A stretch of DNA of 64,000 nt from Clostridia bacterium. GTDB lineage: Bacteria > Bacillota > Clostridia > RUG12999. The position numbers and the translations under genes were made by a program. Below, in pieces: positions 964 through 50,641 of the stretch. Under the pieces are notes generated by a model, which was not told where the DNA came from, ran no database searches, and saw only the letters and a program-made list of their open reading frames with translations. Where the stretch lies: positions 24,017 to 88,016 of the forward strand of contig JAFTSG010000011.1 of NCBI GenBank assembly GCA_017467445.1, written 5' to 3'. Within the stretch, counting starts at the first letter, position 1; each line of letters begins with the position of its first letter.

Positions 964-1945
964 AACCGGAAGCATTGGTGAAATAATAGGACTTTTTGGC
1001 GGATATGACGAAAATATCAAAATAATTGAAAAAGAACTTTCCGTTCGTATTATAAACCGCGAAACCGTTCTTAAAATTGAGGGCGAAGAAAAGTCTTGCG
1101 AAACTGCCGAAAAGGTTATCGGCATACTTCTTTCCCTTATCCGAAAAGGCGAAACCCTGAATGAGCAAAACATTCGTTATGTGCTGTCAATGGCGGAAAA
1201 CGGTCAAGAACAGCAGGTTATAAATATAGCCGAGGATACTATTTGTATAAGCTCGAAAGGCAAACCCGTAAAACCCAAAACGCTCGGTCAGGAAAAATAT
1301 ATTAAAGCTATTGCAAAAAACACAATCACACTCGGTATCGGTCCCGCCGGAACAGGTAAAACCTATCTTGCGGTGGCAATGGCGGTAAAAGCGTTCCGCA
1401 ACAAAGAGGTAAGCCGTATTATCCTTACCCGCCCTGCAGTTGAAGCAGGCGAAAAACTTGGATTTTTGCCGGGTGATTTACAGACTAAAATCGACCCGTA
1501 TCTTCGCCCATTATATGACGGACTTTACGATACAATGGGGTATGAAAACTATCAGCGCAACGTGGAGCGCGGACTTATTGAAATTGCTCCGCTTGCATAT
1601 ATGCGCGGACGTACACTTGACGATGCGTTTATAATCCTTGACGAAGCACAGAACACCACTCCCCAGCAGATGAAAATGTTTTTAACACGTATCGGATTTG
1701 GGTCAAAAGCCATTGTAACCGGTGATATTACGCAGATTGACCTGCCGGGACGTCAGACCTCCGGTCTTAAAGAAGCACTTAAGATATTAAAGGATATTGA
1801 AGGAATTGCCATCTGCAACTTCTCCGAAAAAGACGTTGTGCGTCATCCTCTTGTGCAGAAAATTATTAAAGCATATGAAAAATATGAATTTCGTAAAGAC
1901 GTAGTGAAAAACGAAGCTAAAAAAAGATATATTTTCAAAAAGTAG
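944..1945 (+). CDS. phoH: PhoH-family ATPase
   Basis: 333 aa. Walker A GPAGTGKT and the ILDEAQN box are present. The yqfD-phoH-ybeY order is conserved. Confidence 0.9.
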   Translation: MAEKLIETGSIGEIIGLFGGYDENIKIIEKELSVRIINRETVLKIEGEEKSCETAEKVIGILLSLIRKGETLNEQNIRYVLSMAENGQEQQVINIAEDTICISSKGKPVKPKTLGQEKYIKAIAKNTITLGIGPAGTGKTYLAVAMAVKAFRNKEVSRIILTRPAVEAGEKLGFLPGDLQTKIDPYLRPLYDGLYDTMGYENYQRNVERGLIEIAPLAYMRGRTLDDAFIILDEAQNTTPQQMKMFLTRIGFGSKAIVTGDITQIDLPGRQTSGLKEALKILKDIEGIAICNFSEKDVVRHPLVQKIIKAYEKYEFRKDVVKNEAKKRYIFKK

Positions 1946-1954
1946 GAGACATCT

Positions 1955-2419
1955 ATGGTTGATTTAATTATTGATTATACAGAGGCAACTGAAAACAAAG
2001 ATACCGAAAATATTATACGAAAAGCCGTTGAAAACACACTTATCCATCACGGACTGGATTTTGATGTTGAGGTGTCGGTTACTATTACAAATAACGATGA
2101 GATACAGAGTATCAACAACGAATTCCGTAATATCAACGCACCGACAGACGTGCTTTCGTTCCCGATGTATGAATTTGAAGAGCCTGCAATCTTTGATGAA
2201 AAAGCTCTTGCTCTTGAACCGGGCAGCGTAATTTTAGGTGATATTGTTGTATCTGTTGATAAAATAACCGAGCAGGCAGAAGAATTCGGGCATTCGTTTG
2301 AAACGGAGCTTTCGTATCTTGTAATACACTCAACTCTTCATCTTCTGGGATATGACCATATGGAAGAGGATGACAAACGCCTGATGCGCGAGCAGGAAGA
2401 AATAATACGAAAAATGTAA
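1955..2419 (+). CDS. ybeY: rRNA maturation endoribonuclease YbeY
   Basis: 154 aa with the zinc motif HSTLHLLGYDH (HxxxHxxGxxH). An RBS (AGGAGA) lies 6 nt upstream. Confidence 0.9.
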   Translation: MVDLIIDYTEATENKDTENIIRKAVENTLIHHGLDFDVEVSVTITNNDEIQSINNEFRNINAPTDVLSFPMYEFEEPAIFDEKALALEPGSVILGDIVVSVDKITEQAEEFGHSFETELSYLVIHSTLHLLGYDHMEEDDKRLMREQEEIIRKM

Positions 2420-4191: not shown

Positions 4192-4322
4192 AAAAAAATT
4201 GCAGGCGATAATGCCTGCAATTTAAATACTTAAATATTCTTCCTACGCCGGCATTATCCGTATCAGGTTTAAAGGGTTAGACCAAAAGTCCTCTCAGCCT
4301 GCTATGCAAGCACCCCTGATAA
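4192..4322 (-). promoter_or_regulatory. TPP (THI-box) riboswitch with terminator-type expression platform
   Basis: The minus strand reads GGGGUGC..GCUGAGAGG..ACCCUUUAAACCUGAUACGGAUAAUGCCGGCGUAGGAAG (4238-4320), which matches the conserved THI-box core. It is followed by the hairpin ATTGCAGGC-attat-GCCTGCAAT plus U7 (4221-4192), just before the thiT start. Confidence 0.85.
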
Positions 4323-4342
4323 ATATATTTAGTTTTTATTTA

Positions 4343-12985: not shown

Positions 12986-14092
12986 TTACATAGCCGCTAT
13001 CATACCCGTACATACAATAAACATAAGTCCCGATGCAAGCACGAGCGCAATTATTATTGTAAGCGCAGACGACATTTCATCCACCACACCGCTTATACGC
13101 CTGTCGCACATGGGCGTTATTACAAGCGATGTTATTTTATATATTATGAGCACCGAAACAAGTTTTATTACCGGTGCAAGACATATGTACAAAACCGCAA
13201 TTATTCCAGCACTGCCCGCCGCAGTTTTTACAAGCTTTGTGCATGCAAGCACGCTTTCAAGCGTTTCCGATAAAACGCCGCCCACAATTGGAACAAAATT
13301 TGATGCCGCATATTTGATTGTACGTTTGAGAGCGGCATCTAAGTTTACCGCCGCAAATCCTTTGCCCGCAAGCACAGCGGCAAACACGGTCATTACAATC
13401 CCAAGCGACCACATTACCGCTTTTTTGATTGCCGCCGAAAGCCTGCCAAGACTGAATCGCCCCGAAAGATTATTAACCCCTCCAAGCATTGCCGCAAAAA
13501 CCGCTGCCGGAAGCACAATTCCCGAAAGTACCGACATTGCCGAGGATGCACCTATCACGCCCCAGCTGATTACCCCCGCCTTCGTTGCACCGCCCGATGC
13601 CATAACAAGACCTCCAAGTACCGGCACCGCTGCGCGCACAAATATATTCATGCTGAGCATTGCATCTTCTGCAATTGCAACCGCATTTGTAAAGCTACCG
13701 ATTATCATTATGAATATCACGCTGTAGCTTACATAAAATGCGGTGTTCATAATCCGCTCTTCTTCCGGCGCAAAATTTGAAAGCACCCCAAAGCATAGTG
13801 CAATAAGAATTATTTTTGCCGATGCGGAAATACCCGTTTTAAGTTCCGAAAACAGCATATTTACCACATTTTTCAGTATATCAATAAAATCACTTCCGCC
13901 GCCTGTGGCAATTTCTGCCGCTTCGGTTCCGAAATTAAATTCCGGTGCAATTTCATCGGTTTCGGTTTCTATTCCATATACACCCGAAGTTTCAAGTTGC
14001 TCTGTTATTATGCTTTTTTCGTCATACTCCTCCGCATATGCAACAACAGAAAACACGAGCAAAAAGCATAATACAATCAGGTATTTTTTCAT
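12986..14092 (-). CDS. spoIIIAE: stage III sporulation protein AE
   Basis: 368 aa with a signal peptide and a polytopic membrane domain. The operon position fits. Confidence 0.85.
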   Translation of the reverse strand: MKKYLIVLCFLLVFSVVAYAEEYDEKSIITEQLETSGVYGIETETDEIAPEFNFGTEAAEIATGGGSDFIDILKNVVNMLFSELKTGISASAKIILIALCFGVLSNFAPEEERIMNTAFYVSYSVIFIMIIGSFTNAVAIAEDAMLSMNIFVRAAVPVLGGLVMASGGATKAGVISWGVIGASSAMSVLSGIVLPAAVFAAMLGGVNNLSGRFSLGRLSAAIKKAVMWSLGIVMTVFAAVLAGKGFAAVNLDAALKRTIKYAASNFVPIVGGVLSETLESVLACTKLVKTAAGSAGIIAVLYICLAPVIKLVSVLIIYKITSLVITPMCDRRISGVVDEMSSALTIIIALVLASGLMFIVCTGMIAAM

Positions 14093-14102
14093 TTGTTACT
14101 CC

Positions 14103-14495
14103 TTACTTTATTACCCGCACAATTTCGGAAAAAAGTGCGTTTATTACAGGAAGTGCCACGCCTATTATTGCCGCACGTCCGGCTATTTCCACCACTCTGG
14201 CAATTGCCGTTTGTCCTGCATCTCTGCATATTGCACTGCATACCGTTACGGCAAGCGCAATTCCGCTTGCTTTAAGCACGGTTTTGATATATCCGCCCTC
14301 AATTCCAGCAAGTTCAGAAATACTGTTTACTGCATCAAAAATTTCCGATATTATCCCAAGCGATGAGCCGATAATGATGACCCCTGCCGCTATGGCTATA
14401 ACAACGCCTGTTTCGGGGCGGTCTTTCAACACAAGCACCAGCAAGGATGCCGCAACTCCTATGCAAACTACTGACAGTATATTCATATCACGCAC
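14103..14495 (-). CDS. spoIIIAD: stage III sporulation protein AD
   Basis: A 130-aa small polytopic membrane protein. Its size and order match SpoIIIAD. Confidence 0.8.
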   Translation of the reverse strand: MRDMNILSVVCIGVAASLLVLVLKDRPETGVVIAIAAGVIIIGSSLGIISEIFDAVNSISELAGIEGGYIKTVLKASGIALAVTVCSAICRDAGQTAIARVVEIAGRAAIIGVALPVINALFSEIVRVIK

Positions 14496-14690
14496 CTATA
14501 ATCCAAACAACGTTTTTATGGTGTCAAAGAGGTTTTTTACCTCGCTGAGCACCATAAGCAATACCACAACAAGTCCTGCAATTGTTGTCAGCATTGCCTG
14601 CTCCTCGCGTCCCGAATGTCTTAAAAGCTGGTTGATTGCCGAAACCGTAATTCCTATTGCCGCAATCTGAAATATAAGATTTACGTCCAT
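14496..14690 (-). CDS. spoIIIAC: stage III sporulation protein AC
   Basis: A 64-aa two-helix membrane protein. Its size and order match SpoIIIAC. Confidence 0.8.
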   Translation of the reverse strand: MDVNLIFQIAAIGITVSAINQLLRHSGREEQAMLTTIAGLVVVLLMVLSEVKNLFDTIKTLFGL

Positions 14691-14699
14691 ATTCTCTCC

Positions 14700-15197
14700 T
14701 TAAACAAGCAGAATTGCAACGGTTACACCTGCAAAAAAGCTTATGGAACGGTACATTTTTGCATCTCTTGAGGAAATTTCTTTTGCCTGATTTAATGCAG
14801 ATTTAATGCCGGCATTAGCAAACTCAATATCCTTAACCTGCGTGTCGGTATCACCTTTTCCAAGTCCTTTTGCCAAATTTATCAGTATTTCCACATCGGA
14901 TTTGGAAAGCCATTTCATTTCGCCCATATTCTTTTTCCAGCTTGTTAAGGTATTTTCGCCGCCGCATTTTAAAAGAGATGAAAAAAATGCCCCTACCTCA
15001 CCTTTTTCCAAAGCAAAAATTTCGTATATTTCATAAAGTGGGGTTTTTGTATATCGGACAAGTCCCGACATCCGCCAAAGCACCTGTTGCCACGTCTCAA
15101 GAATATGTACTCTTTTTATAAGATGAGAGGAAAGCTCAAACCCCAGCATAGTGCACGATGCTATAATTGCAACCATCCCCACTATTTTCACCGGCAT
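14700..15197 (-). CDS. spoIIIAB: stage III sporulation protein AB
   Basis: 165 aa with terminal transmembrane helices. It overlaps the spoIIIAA end by 10 nt. Confidence 0.75.
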   Translation of the reverse strand: MPVKIVGMVAIIASCTMLGFELSSHLIKRVHILETWQQVLWRMSGLVRYTKTPLYEIYEIFALEKGEVGAFFSSLLKCGGENTLTSWKKNMGEMKWLSKSDVEILINLAKGLGKGDTDTQVKDIEFANAGIKSALNQAKEISSRDAKMYRSISFFAGVTVAILLV

Positions 15198-16093
15198 TCG
15201 CTCACCTCCTCAATGGTGCCCGCGCCGTTCCGTTGGCTAAGTATAACCACTCGTTCAAATCCGACCGTCCCCATAAGCTCTTTTATAGCCGGACGGGCCA
15301 GAACATCTGCTTTTGAATATCCGTGCGCACTTGCAATGATTTTTACCCCCGCATTAAATGCATTTCTTATTGCCATGCTGTCGGGACCGCTACCAATTTC
15401 GTCGGTTATGATGATGTCAACACCCATTGTGCGAAGTATCATATTTATCCCGTATTCTTTCGGGCAGGCATCCATAACCACCGTGCGAAGTCCAACATCG
15501 TTTTGCGGTGTACCGCGGTATACGGCAGCAATTTCACTGCGTTCATCCGCAATACCAACCTTATATTTGTATCCGAGTATCCTTGCAAGGTCACGAAGAA
15601 CAGTTGTTTTTCCGCATCCGGGCGGAGATACGATAAGTGTGTTACGGACATATTTATCAAACACAGCAGGAAAAATATCTTTGGCACATCCTATTACCTG
15701 ACGCGCAATTCGTATATTAAGTGACGATATGTTTTTTATATATGTAACCTCGCCGTTTTTCATAACCGCACTTCCGCATATGCCAATACGGTGCCCGCCC
15801 TCAATTGTGATATATCCGTTTTTAATTTCATCTTCAAACGAATATACGCTATTATCGCACGCAAGGCGGAAAACCTCGCCAACGCCGGTTTTTGTCATTT
15901 CTATTCCACTGTCTTCGGAAGTGGTTATATCGCCCGACGAAGTAATAAAAAATCCGTCCGCACCCGTGTACAGCATTGCGGGCCGGCCTGCAAGAAGGCG
16001 GATTTCCGTAGCCTCGTATTTTGCGGCTGCCGCCGAAATACTTTTTGGCAGACACCGAAGCACCGGTTCTATGTTCATTTTGATTTTTGTCAT
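15188..16093 (-). CDS. spoIIIAA: stage III sporulation protein AA (secretion-type ATPase)
   Basis: 301 aa with Walker A SPPGCGKTT. It is the first gene of the operon. Confidence 0.85.
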   Translation of the reverse strand: MTKIKMNIEPVLRCLPKSISAAAAKYEATEIRLLAGRPAMLYTGADGFFITSSGDITTSEDSGIEMTKTGVGEVFRLACDNSVYSFEDEIKNGYITIEGGHRIGICGSAVMKNGEVTYIKNISSLNIRIARQVIGCAKDIFPAVFDKYVRNTLIVSPPGCGKTTVLRDLARILGYKYKVGIADERSEIAAVYRGTPQNDVGLRTVVMDACPKEYGINMILRTMGVDIIITDEIGSGPDSMAIRNAFNAGVKIIASAHGYSKADVLARPAIKELMGTVGFERVVILSQRNGAGTIEEVSECR

Positions 16094-16168
16094 ACTGGCC
16101 CCCCTCTTTTGTAATGGTTTGTCTCTAATATTTTATTAACACCTGTCCCAATATATTCCGCTTTCTTA

Positions 16169-16197
16169 TTGATTTTATGAAAATATTGTGATATAAT
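16169..16197 (+). promoter_or_regulatory. near-consensus sigma-A-type promoter (extended -10)
   Basis: TTGATT (16169-16174), a 17-nt spacer, then TGaTATAAT (16189-16197). It points toward the IGPD-like gene and implies a leader of about 215 nt. Confidence 0.65.
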
Positions 16198-16218
16198 GAA
16201 TTCATCTGAGATGAATTC

Positions 16219-16392
16219 AGCTAAATTCGCCTAATGGCGAGCTAAATGTGCTGGTGCACGCTAAATTACTTCGTATCTAAATTGACCTTGCGGTCAGCTA
16301 ATGGCGAATTTAATTTAGCTGTTTCAAAAAACAATTTAGCTATGAAGCAAAGCGGAATAATTTAGCTTTGCACAGCTGTGCAAAATTTAGCT
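16219..16392 (+). repeat. mirror-image array of a 9-mer: AGCTAAATT-type x5 then AATTTAGCT x4
   Basis: Left half-array: 16219, 16240, 16259, 16275 and 16296 (3 near-perfect copies and 2 degenerate ones). Right half-array: 16312, 16333, 16359 and 16384 (4 perfect copies). Small hairpins sit in the spacers. Confidence 0.9.
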
Positions 16393-16418
16393 ATTTAAAG
16401 TTTTTGGGAGGGTTACTT

Positions 16419-17039
16419 ATGATTAAAGTGACAAGAAAAACAACTGAATCTGAAATTGAAGTAATTTTAAGCGGCGGCCCCGTTGCCCCCGATTACAGAA
16501 AGAAAATTGATACTCCCCTGCCGTTCTTAAGCCATATGATTGAACATATCGTATGGAGAAGCGGTATCAATATTGAAACTAAAGTTAAACTTGATAAATT
16601 TGAGCTTTCTCACCTTGTATGTGAGGACCTTGGCATAACTCTTGGTAAAGCTATTTATGAATATAAACAGCAGTGTATAGCTGACGGTGCATACGGTTTT
16701 GGAGATGCAATAGGCATCATCGACGAAGCAAGAGCGTTTTGTGCGCTTTCATTTGAAGACCGTACATATTGGGATATTGATAGCAGCGTGGAAATTCCCG
16801 CTGCCACCGAAGGAATGCTGAGCGAAGATTTGCGCACTTTCCTTGAAGGACTTGCAACAGGTGCGAATATGACACTTCAGATTGATGTTCAGAAAGGTAT
16901 TAACGGTCACCACATATGGGAAGCTATTTATCGCGCACTCGGATTTGCACTCGGCAAAGCACTCTCTCCGGTTGAAAGCCGAAAAGGCATGACAGCAGGT
17001 GTTGCAGGCAAAATTGAATTTGAAATTAAAAAGGATTAA
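16419..17039 (+). CDS. imidazoleglycerol-phosphate dehydratase-like protein (divergent paralog)
   Basis: I place the start at the ATG at 16419, behind GGGAGGG. It is alignable by eye to IGPD: RKTTESEIEV, PFLSHMIEH, NGHHIWEAIYRALGFALGKA. The first DxHHxxED motif reads LSHLVCED. Confidence 0.7.
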   Translation: MIKVTRKTTESEIEVILSGGPVAPDYRKKIDTPLPFLSHMIEHIVWRSGINIETKVKLDKFELSHLVCEDLGITLGKAIYEYKQQCIADGAYGFGDAIGIIDEARAFCALSFEDRTYWDIDSSVEIPAATEGMLSEDLRTFLEGLATGANMTLQIDVQKGINGHHIWEAIYRALGFALGKALSPVESRKGMTAGVAGKIEFEIKKD

Positions 17040-17041
17040 TT

Positions 17042-18070
17042 ATGGGGCTAATTGACAAATACGAAAAAATAATTTTTGATATGGACGGCGTAATTACCAG
17101 CGAAAACGGCTATTGGAATTGCGCCGCTTTGGCCGTTTATGAGCTGCTTTACGATAAGCGCTATTATGGCACACGCGACCTTGATACAAAATGGATGTAT
17201 GAAAACGTTGCGGAAATAAGAAAAAATATTCTTTGCAATGATACCACAATTGCAATGTTCAAAAATTTCGGTGTTAACAGTAACTGGGACCTTGCATACC
17301 TGACACTTTCGGGTGCGGTAGGTCTTGATACGGAAGATTTTAAACTTGTGCAGGAGCATTACAGAAACTTAAATCTTAATGCGCCTGAAATTTATGACCA
17401 CGCGGCAGAGCTTTATTCCCGCCGCTTTGGTGATATGGACTGCACAAGACTTTCGCCGTTCTGGGTGAATTTGCAGACTGTTTTCAACGAATGGTATTAC
17501 GGAGATAAATATTTCAAGAAGTGTTACGGCAAAGCGCCTGCCAAAAAGGGCAAACACAGTTTTATGGCAAATGAAGTGCCTATGCACGGAATCAAAAAAA
17601 CAAAAGCATTTTTGAAAACACTTAAAAAGAAAGGTATTGCCGTATCTGTAGGTACGGGCAGACCTGATTTTGAGTTTTGGCTTCCTATGAAAAAATGCGG
17701 ACTTTTAAAATATTTTGATAAAAACTCTATTGTAACGCACGACCACGTAATGGCGGCGGCAGAAAAAACAGGACTTTTTCTTGCAAAACCTAATCCGTAT
17801 TCGTTTTTGAAAGCGGCATACGGACTTGATTATCCCGACGAAAAAATTGTATCTGGTGATTATGACGAAAAATATCTTCAAAAGGTACTTATCGTGGGCG
17901 ATGCAGGTGCAGATATTCTTGCCGCAAAGGCAATAAACACCGATTTTGCCGCTGTGCTGACAGGTGTTAACGGCAAAGGTTCAAAAAAATATTTTGAAGA
18001 GCTTAATTCGGAATATATATTTGACGACGTACTTGAACTTGTTAAGCCGAGTGCTGAAGAGTGCCCGTAG
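17042..18070 (+). CDS. HAD-superfamily phosphatase with large cap insertion
   Basis: 342 aa. HAD motif I is FDMDGVITSE, motif II is VGTGRP, the motif III lysine lies in AKPNPYSF, and motif IV is VGDAGADILAAKA. It starts 2 nt after the IGPD-like stop. Confidence 0.75.
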   Translation: MGLIDKYEKIIFDMDGVITSENGYWNCAALAVYELLYDKRYYGTRDLDTKWMYENVAEIRKNILCNDTTIAMFKNFGVNSNWDLAYLTLSGAVGLDTEDFKLVQEHYRNLNLNAPEIYDHAAELYSRRFGDMDCTRLSPFWVNLQTVFNEWYYGDKYFKKCYGKAPAKKGKHSFMANEVPMHGIKKTKAFLKTLKKKGIAVSVGTGRPDFEFWLPMKKCGLLKYFDKNSIVTHDHVMAAAEKTGLFLAKPNPYSFLKAAYGLDYPDEKIVSGDYDEKYLQKVLIVGDAGADILAAKAINTDFAAVLTGVNGKGSKKYFEELNSEYIFDDVLELVKPSAEECP

Positions 18071-18087: not shown

Positions 18088-18120
18088 AAAAAGGAATCCG
18101 CAAAAGCGGATTCCTACTTT
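18088..18120. terminator. bidirectional terminator
   Basis: Hairpin AGGAATCCGC-aaaa-GCGGATTCCT with an A-run upstream and a T-rich tract downstream. Confidence 0.65.
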
Positions 18121-50607: not shown

Positions 50608-50641
50608 AGACTTTCCTCCGTATAATTTAGCTACTTATTAT

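What the first reader, a model, noticed from the sequence alone, without database searches (positions are those of the whole stretch)
16169..16418. Long leader built from mirror-image arrays of one 9-mer (AGCTAAATT x5, then AATTTAGCT x4) behind a near-consensus promoter
A promoter (TTGATT, 17 nt, TGaTATAAT at 16169-16197) fires toward an RBS-supported ATG at 16419, so the leader is about 215 nt. That leader is almost entirely one 9-mer and its reverse complement. In one orientation: AGCTAAATT at 16219, AGCTAAATg at 16240, cGCTAAATT at 16259, atCTAAATT at 16275 and AGCTAAtgg at 16296. In the other orientation there are four perfect AATTTAGCT copies at 16312, 16333, 16359 and 16384. Spacing is 16-26 nt and the array is symmetric around ~16305. 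The spacers hold mini-hairpins: TTCATCtgaGATGAA (16201-16215), TCGCCtaatGGCGA (16227-16240), GTGCtggtGCAC (16248-16259), TGACCttgcGGTCA (16283-16296) and the palindrome TTGCACAGCTGTGCAA (16368-16383). By rough expectation, a given 9-mer should occur about once or less in 2 x 64 kb, and I found only one other copy (50624-50632). As RNA, the half-arrays could zip into four nested 7-9 bp helices. Because every helix would have the same sequence, a sequence-specific binder is at least as plausible. That could be an operator or roadblock array, centromere-like iterons, or an RNA sponge. It matches no riboswitch, T-box, attenuator or regulator box that I know.
Basis: seen in the sequence. Interest (0 to 1): 0.72.

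Follow-up and report, generated by a model that had tools for sequence, protein, structure and literature searches.

The report
Gut-1-like mirrored hairpin-linker repeat element
The odd "leader" is real, but it is not a regulator made for this gene: it is one 195-bp copy of a structured repeat scattered through the genomes of uncultured gut Clostridia, related in architecture to the function-unknown Gut-1 RNA motif.

Summary
Window 16198-16392 holds a 5' hairpin, then 4 (+1 partial) AGCTAAATT linkers, then 4 perfect AATTTAGCT linkers. Seven small hairpins sit between them, behind a good sigma-A promoter and 26 nt ahead of an RBS-supported ATG.

It is not specific to the IGPD-like gene. One close relative (L001) has the same promoter and RBS but lacks exactly this block, and more distant orthologues lack it too. 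A pattern scan of species genomes found more than 80 hairpin-spaced arrays with the same linker. Of these, 48 are mirrored. All the labelled ones come from Clostridia/Oscillospirales MAGs and lie beside unrelated genes. They often follow tRNA, tmRNA or rRNA operons or precede a PF05635 four-helix-bundle gene.

A profile built from 31 foreign copies hits the window at E=2.5e-42, on the + strand only. The hairpins covary strongly (94% paired, 28 of 33 pairs with compensatory changes). A long-range helix (16222-16231 with 16303-16312) also covaries.

Sister classes with other linkers keep the same plan. The GTGAAAT class is the Rfam Gut-1 motif, which models only the left half.

Most likely this is a dispersed, self-folding single-stranded (probably RNA) module carried here as a passenger in the leader. 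Its function is unknown. I rate it a new variant of a known, uncharacterised kind.

The parts
16198..16392 (+). The whole repeat element (hp0 through R4), 195 bp
   Evidence: Exactly this block is missing in close relative L001. An nhmmer profile built from 31 foreign copies hits 16218-16392 on the + strand at E=2.5e-42 (139.8 bits), against 33 bits on the - strand.
16169..16197 (+). Sigma-A promoter: TTGATT, 17-nt spacer, TGaTATAAT. It is host sequence, not part of the indel.
   Evidence: 10 of 12 positions, with TG. It is conserved in L001, L323, L325 and L328.
16198..16218 (+). hp0: GAATTCATC-tga-GATGAATTC. Its 5' arm abuts the -10 box.
   Evidence: I7. Relatives carry GAATTCAA/TTGAATTC, which is a compensatory swap. 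A hairpin directly before L1 is seen in 28 of the 55 copies classified: 17 with a T-run and 11 abutting a promoter. About a dozen of the rest also have a strong hairpin there, by my reading of the listed folds.
16219..16227 (+). L1 linker, AGCTAAATT
16227..16240 (+). hp1: TCGCC-taat-GGCGA
   Evidence: helix 1 (94.9% paired, 4 pairs with compensatory change)
16240..16248 (+). L2 linker, AGCTAAATG
16248..16259 (+). hp2: GTGC-tggt-GCAC
   Evidence: helix 2 (all 4 pairs covary)
16259..16267 (+). L3 linker, cGCTAAATT
16267..16275 (+). hp3: TAC-ttc-GTA
   Evidence: helix 3
16275..16283 (+). L4 linker, aTCTAAATT. It is mutated; close relatives have GCTAAAT.
16283..16296 (+). hp4: TGACC-ttgc-GGTCA
   Evidence: helix 4 (98.4% paired, all 4 pairs covary)
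16296..16302 (+). Truncated fifth linker, AGCTAAT
   Evidence: GCT is invariant here in all 32 aligned copies.
16303..16312 (+). Centre GGCGAATTTA. It is complementary to 16222-16231 (the L1 tail plus the 5' arm of hp1).
   Evidence: I9: 10 of 10 bp. helix 1 (95.9% paired, 4 pairs with compensatory change). The same rule holds in the other linker classes.
16312..16320 (+). R1 linker, AATTTAGCT
16320..16333 (+). hp5: TGTTT-caaa-AAACA
   Evidence: helix 5
16333..16341 (+). R2 linker, AATTTAGCT
16341..16359 (+). hp6: TAT-GAA-GC-aaa-GC-GGA-ATA, a hairpin with a purine (tandem G.A type) internal loop
   Evidence: helices 6 and 7. The motif looks RNA-like only on this strand.
16359..16367 (+). R3 linker, AATTTAGCT
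16367..16384 (+). hp7: TTTGCAC-agct-GTGCAAA
   Evidence: helices 8 and 9. Relatives have TTTGAAC/GTTCAAA, a compensatory swap.
16384..16392 (+). R4 linker, AATTTAGCT, the 3' end of the element
16406..16421 (+). SD GGGAGGG and the ATG of the IGPD-like gene. This is host sequence and is left unpaired in the predicted fold.
16419..18070 (+). Downstream operon: IGPD-like gene (PF00475) and HAD hydrolase gene

Best explanation
Window 16198-16392 is one full-length, oriented copy of a dispersed structured repeat found in uncultured Clostridia/Oscillospirales.

Plan of the element:
- a 5' hairpin (hp0);
- four 'GCUAAAU linker + small hairpin' units;
- a centre that is complementary to the start of the element;
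- four reverse-complement linkers (AUUUAGC) separated by three hairpins, one of which carries a purine internal loop.

In this genome it lies between a pre-existing sigma-A promoter and the RBS of a hisB-like/HAD operon. It is therefore transcribed as about 190 nt of the 5' leader.

It works, if it works at all, as a self-contained single-stranded fold, most likely RNA. The seven hairpins form. The left linkers can then zip onto the right linkers to give a rod of stacked four-way junctions. Alternatively the centre invades hp1. The SD stays free.

It is a passenger module, not a sensor for this operon. Any effect on the operon (for example a change in mRNA stability or a protein-binding platform) is generic to the family.

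Shown: family membership, indel status, the hairpins, the long-range centre helix, the strand asymmetry, and the lack of gene specificity.

Inferred: transcription, the zipper, and any function.
For: Indel status:
- L001 lacks exactly hp0 through R4 while keeping the promoter and RBS.
- L323, L325 and L328 carry the block at the same site, with compensatory stem swaps in hp0 and hp7.

Family:
81 of the 120 stretches have hairpin spacers and 48 are mirrored. The 19 non-Clostridia stretches among the 80 labelled ones have no hairpin spacers.
- An nhmmer profile built without the window hits 16218-16392 (+) at E=2.5e-42 and nothing else in 64 kb.

Structure:
- 96% Watson-Crick pairing over 104 distinct left-half spacers.
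- 94.2% of cells paired, 28 of 33 pairs with double-sided change, 0 of 500 shuffles as good, and slid controls at 28-46%.
- The centre helix is 95.9% paired with 4 covarying pairs.

Strand:
- The profile scores 139.8 bits on + and 33 bits on -.
- The tandem G.A hairpin with GNRA-type loops reads as an RNA motif only on +.
- 11 of 55 copies, including the window, have a full TTGnnn-N14-TGnTAnAAT promoter abutting hp0.
- Flanking genes are co-oriented 69 to 19.

No gene specificity:
- Downstream genes are diverse.
- The only recurrent neighbour is PF05635.

Same plan with other linkers:
- CGATAT/ATATCG, GTGATAT/ATATCAC and GTGAAAT/ATTTCAC classes keep left/right complementarity and the centre rule.
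- The GTGAAAT class is Rfam Gut-1, hit at 58-85 bits.

Thermodynamics: L1:R4 pairing probability averages 0.85 over 32 copies.
Against: - 17 of 55 copies have hp0 plus a T-run, a terminator-like signal, directly in front of the array. Transcription from upstream should stop before those copies.
- Unidirectional arrays show no gene-strand preference (21 to 13).
- The 69:19 orientation bias could simply reflect leading-strand gene bias, if the element is oriented relative to replication.
- Wobble counts do not pick a strand overall. GT versus AC mismatches are 5 to 10 in the left half and 16 to 6 in the right half.
- Left-half loops are GNA-type on the opposite strand.
- The zipper cannot be tested by covariation because the linkers are invariant. 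The one common linker variant (R3 = ATTTCGC, in about a third of the 32 aligned copies by my reading of A2) is never compensated in L2. The window's own L4 mutation is also uncompensated.
- No expression data were available.
- Only one copy lies in the 64-kb window.
Confidence: 0.6

Rival explanations
1. It is a non-autonomous mobile DNA element, like a REP/BIME/REPIN or a MITE. The hairpins and the constant flanking linker would be recognised as single-stranded DNA by an enzyme encoded elsewhere, such as an HUH/RAYT-type enzyme. The RNA-like features and the position in the leader would be incidental.
For: - Dispersed copies lie at non-orthologous sites, with several copies per MAG (L053, L071, L087, L093, L119; at least 10 arrays in about 24 kb of the RGIG8738 contig).
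- There is a presence/absence polymorphism whose ends coincide with the element's ends.
- Units amplify in tandem, up to 13 units.
- The two halves look 'sense' on opposite strands.
- Insertion sites recur at hairpin/T-run sites and right after -10 boxes.
Against: - There is no target-site duplication and no terminal inverted repeat beyond the internal mirror.
- No transposase or integrase recurs within 2.5 kb of 86 loci.
- Only 3 of 79 viral pattern matches have hairpin spacers, and blastn with the window element finds nothing in phages or plasmids.
- Hairpin stems are highly variable, unlike REPs, whose stems are conserved within a genome.
- The copy at this locus has been inherited vertically across about 10-15% DNA divergence.
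- The L001 allele is at least as well explained by deletion.
Confidence: 0.2
2. It is an RNA scaffold or sponge. The repeated single-stranded linkers, presented between hairpins, would be binding sites for a sequence-specific RNA-binding protein. One candidate is the oligomeric PF05635 four-helix-bundle (Avd-like) protein whose gene often follows the array. The element would titrate or recruit that protein.
For: - The linkers are invariant although structure alone does not require this.
- The motif is presented 4+4 times between hairpins, as in CsrB-type or Gut-1-type architectures.
- A PF05635 gene starts a median 28 nt after the array in 9 of 86 loci.
Against: - As RNA, the left and right linkers are different sequences (GCUAAAU and AUUUAGC). 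One RNA-binding specificity cannot explain both.
- Every linker class keeps left and right complementary. That points to pairing, or to a double-stranded DNA site.
- No PF05635 gene lies in the window.
- Most copies have no such neighbour.
Confidence: 0.12
3. It is a double-stranded DNA protein-binding array: an operator or roadblock, iterons, or a centromere-like site made of 9-bp boxes in two orientations.
For: - On double-stranded DNA the left and right linkers are the same site in opposite orientation. That would explain why they stay complementary in every linker class.
- The array lies between a promoter and its gene.
Against: - Box spacing is not conserved. It is 16-26 bp here and varies with hairpin length among copies, while stem complementarity is conserved at 94-96% with abundant compensatory change.
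- The covarying long-range helix, the purine internal loop and the GNRA-type loops have no meaning in duplex DNA.
- No regulator, partition or replication gene recurs nearby.
- The array is dispensable at this promoter in L001.
Confidence: 0.05
4. It is a gene-specific cis-regulatory leader (attenuator, riboswitch or protein-dependent antiterminator) of the IGPD-like/HAD operon.
For: It lies in the 5' UTR behind a strong promoter. It has mutually exclusive pairings, hp1 versus the centre helix.
Against: - It is absent from L001, and no such leader is seen at the orthologous loci L002 and L003.
- It is found beside many unrelated genes and after tRNA and tmRNA genes.
- There is no terminator, and the SD is not sequestered.
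- Rfam gives no hit.
Confidence: 0.03

Closest known systems
Gut-1 RNA motif (Rfam RF01706; Weinberg et al. 2010, PMC2864571)
   Same: - Start: 'CA', then a 7-nt AU-rich linker, then the hairpin UCGCC..GGCGA, then linker, hairpin, linker, hairpin, linker.
- Habitat: gut metagenome Clostridia.
- Position: often right after tRNA genes and a terminator-like hairpin.
- Gut-1 loci fetched here turn out to have the same mirrored right half, the same centre rule and the same tandem-G.A hairpin.
   Different: - The linker is GUGAAAU, not GCUAAAU.
- The window scores 14.1 bits against a gathering score of 50.
- The GCTAAAT profile does not hit Gut-1 loci. The kinship is architectural and cannot be detected by sequence.
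- The Rfam model covers only 77 nt, the left half.
- The source paper gives no function. It says only that the motif was detected in human-gut sequences.
REP / BIME / REPIN elements of Proteobacteria (mobilised by RAYT)
   Same: - Short extragenic hairpins with a conserved flanking oligonucleotide.
- Pairs and clusters in inverted orientation.
- Many copies per genome, located at gene ends.
- They can affect mRNA stability.
   Different: - REP stems are conserved in sequence within a genome. Here the stems vary and the linkers are constant.
- No RAYT-type gene was seen near arrays.
- The taxon is different.
- There is a defined 4+4 architecture in which each hairpin keeps its positional identity.
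BOX elements of Streptococcus pneumoniae (boxA-boxB(n)-boxC)
   Same: A modular, transcribed, highly structured intergenic repeat in a Firmicute, with a middle module that varies in copy number.
   Different: The modules are 45-59 nt long and conserved in sequence. They are not 7-nt linkers with covarying mini-hairpins, and there is no mirror of complementary linkers.
Transposon ends with subterminal repeat arrays (Tn7, Mu, plant En/Spm, Drosophila foldback elements)
   Same: One short motif is repeated several times in one orientation and then in the other.
   Different: No target duplication, no transposase and no conserved terminal nucleotides are seen. The spacers are selected to be hairpins. 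Unidirectional arrays also exist.
Multi-site sponge RNAs (CsrB/RsmZ) and type III antitoxin repeat RNAs (ToxI)
   Same: A short motif is repeated and presented by a series of hairpins.
   Different: In CsrB the motif sits in the loops. In ToxI the whole units are identical and lie next to a toxin gene. Neither has a complementary second half.

Membership tests
   nhmmer hits profile positions 2-177 of 178 at E=2.5e-42 (139.8 bits) on 16218-16392 (+).
   L4 carries one mismatch. All seven spacers form hairpins.
   16222-16231 pairs with 16303-16312 at 10 of 10 positions (I9). The family-wide figure is 95.9%.
   16198-16218
Rfam Gut-1 (RF01706) | Covariance-model score at or above the gathering score (50 bits) | tested here: not met
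   14.1 bits, E=7.6. True Gut-1 loci score 58-85 bits.
Rfam Gut-1 (RF01706) | Conserved (G)UGAAAU linkers between the hairpins | tested here: not met
   The linker here is GCUAAAU.
Rfam Gut-1 (RF01706) | Architecture: CA, then linker and hairpin repeated three times, then a final linker; first hairpin UCGCC/GGCGA | tested here: met
   The alignment, compared with the Gut-1 loci.
MITE or transposon-end array | Target-site duplication flanking the insertion | tested here: not met
   Comparison of the empty and filled sites shows none. L001 has 6 unrelated nt (AAGTGT) in its place.
MITE or transposon-end array | A cognate transposase encoded in full-length relatives or nearby | tested here: not met
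   No recurrent transposase or integrase lies within 2.5 kb of 86 array loci. Whole genomes were not searchable.
MITE or transposon-end array | Many near-identical copies in the same genome | not testable with these tools
   Only 64 kb of this genome is available, and it holds one copy. Other MAGs have several copies.
Riboswitch, T-box or attenuator | Conserved upstream of orthologous genes, with an expression platform (terminator or SD sequestration) | tested here: not met
   It is absent in L001, and no such leader is seen in L002 or L003. There is no terminator and the SD is free. Rfam gives no hit.
Double-stranded DNA iteron, operator or centromere array | Conserved spacing or helical phasing of the boxes, and an adjacent cognate protein gene | tested here: not met
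   Spacing is 16-26 bp and varies among copies, while the stems covary. There is no recurrent DNA-binding neighbour.
REP/BIME (RAYT) | Hairpin sequence conserved within a genome, plus a RAYT gene | tested here: inconclusive
   Stems are variable (104 distinct left-half spacers). No RAYT-like neighbour was found, but whole genomes could not be searched.

The most novel reading that the evidence does not exclude
These arrays could be a distinct class of modular 'zipper' nucleic-acid elements. A 7-nt linker code (GCUAAAU, GUGAAAU, CGAUAU, GUGAUAU and possibly more) would define mutually exclusive classes. Each class would fold into a ladder of perfect four-way junctions, or pair between molecules. 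The elements would propagate specifically into sites where RNA polymerase starts or stops: right after -10 boxes, and fused to terminator hairpins behind tRNA, tmRNA and rRNA operons. They might act together with PF05635 (Avd-like) four-helix-bundle proteins. That would be a new kind of RNA-linked selfish or regulatory system in gut Clostridia.
Probability: 0.13. Interest if true: 0.85.

Novelty: new variant of a known kind. Interest (0 to 1): 0.58.

Why it matters
**For annotation.** This 5' leader should not be read as a histidine-pathway regulator. It is a repeat element, and its presence or absence is a strain-level polymorphism.

**For RNA biology.** The Rfam Gut-1 motif has had no known function since 2010. 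It now appears to be only the left half of a larger mirrored element. That element exists in several linker classes and is widespread in rumen and gut Oscillospirales. It is often placed behind stable-RNA operons and in front of PF05635 genes.

**Testable handles for an uncharacterised family.**
- Natural alleles with and without the element exist at one promoter.
- Hairpin 1 and the centre helix are mutually exclusive, and both covary.
- The linker classes can be swapped.

**If ordinary.** If the family turns out to be only a REP-like selfish repeat, it is still a major unannotated repeat class in these genomes. It creates strong secondary structure inside transcripts.

Tried and rejected
- **Rfam.** At gathering thresholds on the window and on 20 array loci there is no family on the element. 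With E-value thresholds there are only weak rliG, Gut-1 and MIR2630 matches.
- **blastn of the element.** No match in the phage or plasmid collections.
- **Viral-contig pattern scan.** 79 matches, of which only 3 have hairpin spacers. The rest are unrelated repeats.
- **Other arrays in the window.** A k-mer plus hairpin scan found none. The 9-mer at 50624 is isolated.
- **PF05635 gene in the window.** tblastn found none.
- **Neighbour census for a mobilising enzyme.** Nothing recurrent.
- **Unidirectional arrays as a strand test.** No preference.
- **G.U versus A.C wobble as a strand test.** Inconclusive.
- **Cross-hits between linker classes.** nhmmer found none to Gut-1 loci.
- **Literature.** Searches for the 9-mer, for Gut-1 follow-ups, for extragenic repeats in Oscillospiraceae and for PF05635 gave nothing beyond Weinberg 2010. 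One supplement query was uninformative.
- **More population alleles.** P0124 and P0127 contigs end before the site, and P0121 is not on record.
- **Considered and dropped, from my own knowledge of these systems.** CRISPR or TIGR arrays, type III antitoxin arrays, retron ncRNA, integron attC and lambda-type arm sites. None fits a 7-nt constant linker with covarying mini-hairpins and no associated gene.
Full report
**1.

Reading 15800-16800 and pattern searches confirm every coordinate.
- AGCTAAATT lies at 16219.
- One-mismatch copies lie at 16240, 16259 and 16275. A partial copy lies at 16296.
- Four perfect AATTTAGCT copies lie at 16312, 16333, 16359 and 16384.
- The only other exact copy, at 50624, is isolated.

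There are six exact matches against 1.47 expected, and 0 of 100 shuffles reach six.

The promoter TTGATT-17-TGaTATAAT at 16169-16197 is the best + strand sigma-70 match in the region. The ATG at 16419 follows GGGAGGG and opens a PF00475 IGPD-like gene, which a HAD hydrolase gene follows. spoIIIAA diverges on the other strand.

Three more were missed, at 16267-16275, 16320-16333 and 16341-16359. The first hairpin is longer than stated (16198-16218).

**2. It is not a leader that belongs to this gene**

A contig whose IGPD-like protein is 95% identical (L001) has the same gene order, promoter and RBS. Its intergenic region is 136 bp instead of 325 bp. The alignment shows that exactly 16198-16392 is missing, with 6 unrelated bases in its place and no target duplication.

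Three other close relatives (L323, L325, L328; LeuRS 97% identical) carry the block at the same site.

DNA identities of the flanking genes give a near-trichotomy, with window and L001 marginally closest. One indel event is needed, and loss in L001 is slightly favoured.

Orthologous genes at 68-69% protein identity (L002, L003) sit next to hisD and show no such array or leader.

**3. It is one member of a large dispersed family**

- 81 stretches have spacers that are hairpins.
- 48 show the same arrangement of left linkers followed by right linkers.
- The 19 non-Clostridia stretches among the 80 with printed titles have non-hairpin spacers.

Carriers are labelled Ruminococcaceae, Oscillospiraceae, Acutalibacteraceae, Faecousia, Ructibacterium or 'Clostridia bacterium'. 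Most are from ruminant guts.

The window itself matches a 'MAG: Clostridia bacterium'. Its LeuRS relatives at about 75% identity are Oscillospiraceae.

A profile HMM built from 31 foreign copies finds the window at 16218-16392 (+), E=2.5e-42, full length. It scores 33 bits on the minus strand and finds nothing else in 64 kb.

Some MAGs have several copies, tandem copies, half copies, and unidirectional arrays of up to 13 units.

**4. Anatomy and structure**

When all copies are oriented by the asymmetric centre, they share one plan:
- hp0, then CA;
- GCTAAAT plus a hairpin, four times;
- AGCT, a few variable bases, then a centre;
- ATTTAGC plus a hairpin, three times, then a final ATTTAGC.

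Left-half spacers are 96% Watson-Crick over 104 distinct sequences.

On a 32-sequence alignment:
- the seven hairpins are 94.2% paired;
- 28 of 33 pairs show changes on both sides;
- 0 of 500 shuffles do as well;
- slid controls reach 28-46%.

The sixth hairpin carries a conserved purine internal loop (tandem G.A type) and often a GNRA loop. These are RNA-like only on the strand that is + in the window.

The centre (GGCGAATTTA, 16303-16312) is complementary to the L1 tail plus the 5' arm of hp1 (16222-16231). This long-range helix is 95.9% paired with four covarying pairs. It competes with hp1 for the same arm.

Even among the closest relatives, hp0 and hp7 differ by compensatory swaps.

**5. 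Do the two halves zip?**

Thermodynamic modelling gives L1:R4 a mean pairing probability of 0.85. The inner helices reach about 0.4 because of register ambiguity. The centre helix is near 0 at equilibrium.

Covariation cannot test the zipper inside this class, because the linkers are invariant. The one frequent variant (R3 = ATTTCGC, in about a third of the 32 aligned copies by my reading of A2) is not compensated. Neither is the window's L4 mutation.

Elements with other linkers exist with the same plan:
- CGATAT / ATATCG (L066);
- GTTATAT or GTGATAT / ATATCAC (L091);
- GTGAAAT / ATTTCAC (many metagenome loci).

In each class the left and right linkers are complementary and the centre rule holds. 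This is class-level covariation. It favours pairing, or a duplex-DNA site, over one single-stranded RNA-binding specificity. An inverted-duplication origin with concerted evolution is not excluded.

**6. Link to a known family**

The weak Gut-1 match in the window (14.1 bits) prompted a test. The GTGAAAT-class loci are hit by Rfam Gut-1 (RF01706) at 58-85 bits. The hit is always on the left half and in the same orientation, typically after tRNA genes and a terminator-like hairpin.

Gut-1 is thus the left half of a sister class.

The source paper says only that Gut-1 occurs in human-gut sequences and is probably a non-coding RNA. I found no follow-up.

The GCTAAAT profile does not cross-hit Gut-1 loci, so the kinship is architectural.

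**7. Context and strand**

Downstream genes are diverse. The only recurrent neighbour is a PF05635 four-helix-bundle (23S rRNA IVS / Avd-like) gene that starts about 28 nt after the array, in 9 of 86 loci. No transposase recurs.

At least a dozen copies directly follow tRNA genes, tmRNA genes or rRNA-operon ends.

With elements oriented like the window's + strand, flanking genes are co-oriented 69 to 19.

Upstream of L1 in 55 copies:
- 17 have a hairpin plus a T-run;
- 11, including the window, have a complete TTGnnn-N14-TGnTAnAAT promoter whose -10 box abuts hp0.

These points favour an RNA on the + strand. Four caveats apply:
- Terminator-type copies should not be transcribed from upstream.
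- Unidirectional arrays have no strand preference.
- Wobble counts are indecisive.
- Left-half loops look 'sense' on the other strand.

**8. Conclusion**

The finding is real and unusual in form. Its meaning changes, however. It is a passenger copy of a dispersed, self-folding hairpin-linker repeat, a new linker variant of the Gut-1 kind. It lies between a pre-existing promoter and RBS and leaves the SD free.

What the family does, and how it spreads, remains unknown. I rate RNA-level self-folding as most likely. A DNA-level mobile element, a protein scaffold and a duplex-DNA binding array are the ranked alternatives.

Noticed in passing
window 4223-4327 (-): A TPP riboswitch (RF00059) scores 79.6 bits against a gathering score of 54.3.
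   Followed up: no
window 12986-16093 (-): A spoIIIAA-AE sporulation operon is transcribed divergently from the promoter region next to the array. Its own promoter must lie in 16094-16170.
   Followed up: no
window 18092-18115: A perfect 10-bp GC-rich palindrome looks like a terminator on both strands. It lies between the HAD gene and a convergent 234-aa gene with no Pfam match.
   Followed up: no
L066 about 2600-2900 and L091 about 1750-2000 (minus strand of each locus): A second mirrored element with a different linker (CGATAT/ATATCG; GTTATAT-GTGATAT/ATATCAC) directly follows a GCTAAAT element. Several linker classes therefore coexist in one genome.
   Followed up: partly
L019, L061, L072, L087, L091, L099, L100, L103, beside the arrays: A conserved box recurs before or after arrays: 'TTGCATCTAAAyyATTCGGCTCTTCCA', followed by an A-run, a hairpin and a T-run. 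Its role is unexplained. It could be a promoter, an RNA 3' end or a recombination joint.
   Followed up: partly
L011, L022, L031, L057, L120, 60-100 nt after the array: Another conserved long hairpin, 'ataacccactatgac...gtcatagtgggtt', recurs downstream of arrays. It may be a second repeat family or a shared terminator.
   Followed up: no
L020, L032, L039 (contig JAGASR010000034, MAG RGIG8738): At least ten hairpin-linker arrays lie in about 24 kb, between most genes, including unidirectional arrays of 10 units. This genome is saturated with the repeat.
   Followed up: partly
L037, L044, L053, L068, L079, L085, L087, L094 and others: A PF05635 (23S rRNA intervening-sequence / Avd-like four-helix-bundle) gene starts 24-28 nt after the array. 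The order is often tRNA or tmRNA, then hairpin, then array, then this gene. In L053 a second array copy sits inside a duplicated 5' part of the gene.
   Followed up: partly
L323 9753-10274, L325 and L328: Close relatives carry an extra Fumerase_C-domain gene after the HAD gene. The window and L001 lack it. In L002 and L003 the IGPD-like gene sits with hisD, which suggests a his-pathway role.
   Followed up: no
window 16192-16218 and the equivalent positions in L036, L037, L058, L067, L068, L071, L082, L083: The 5' arm of hp0 overlaps or abuts the -10 hexamer (TAGAAT-AGATTTAAC... or TATAAT-GAATTCA...). The -35 regions of these loci are unrelated in sequence. This suggests a preference for insertion right after -10 boxes, or an element-borne extended -10 box.
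   Followed up: partly
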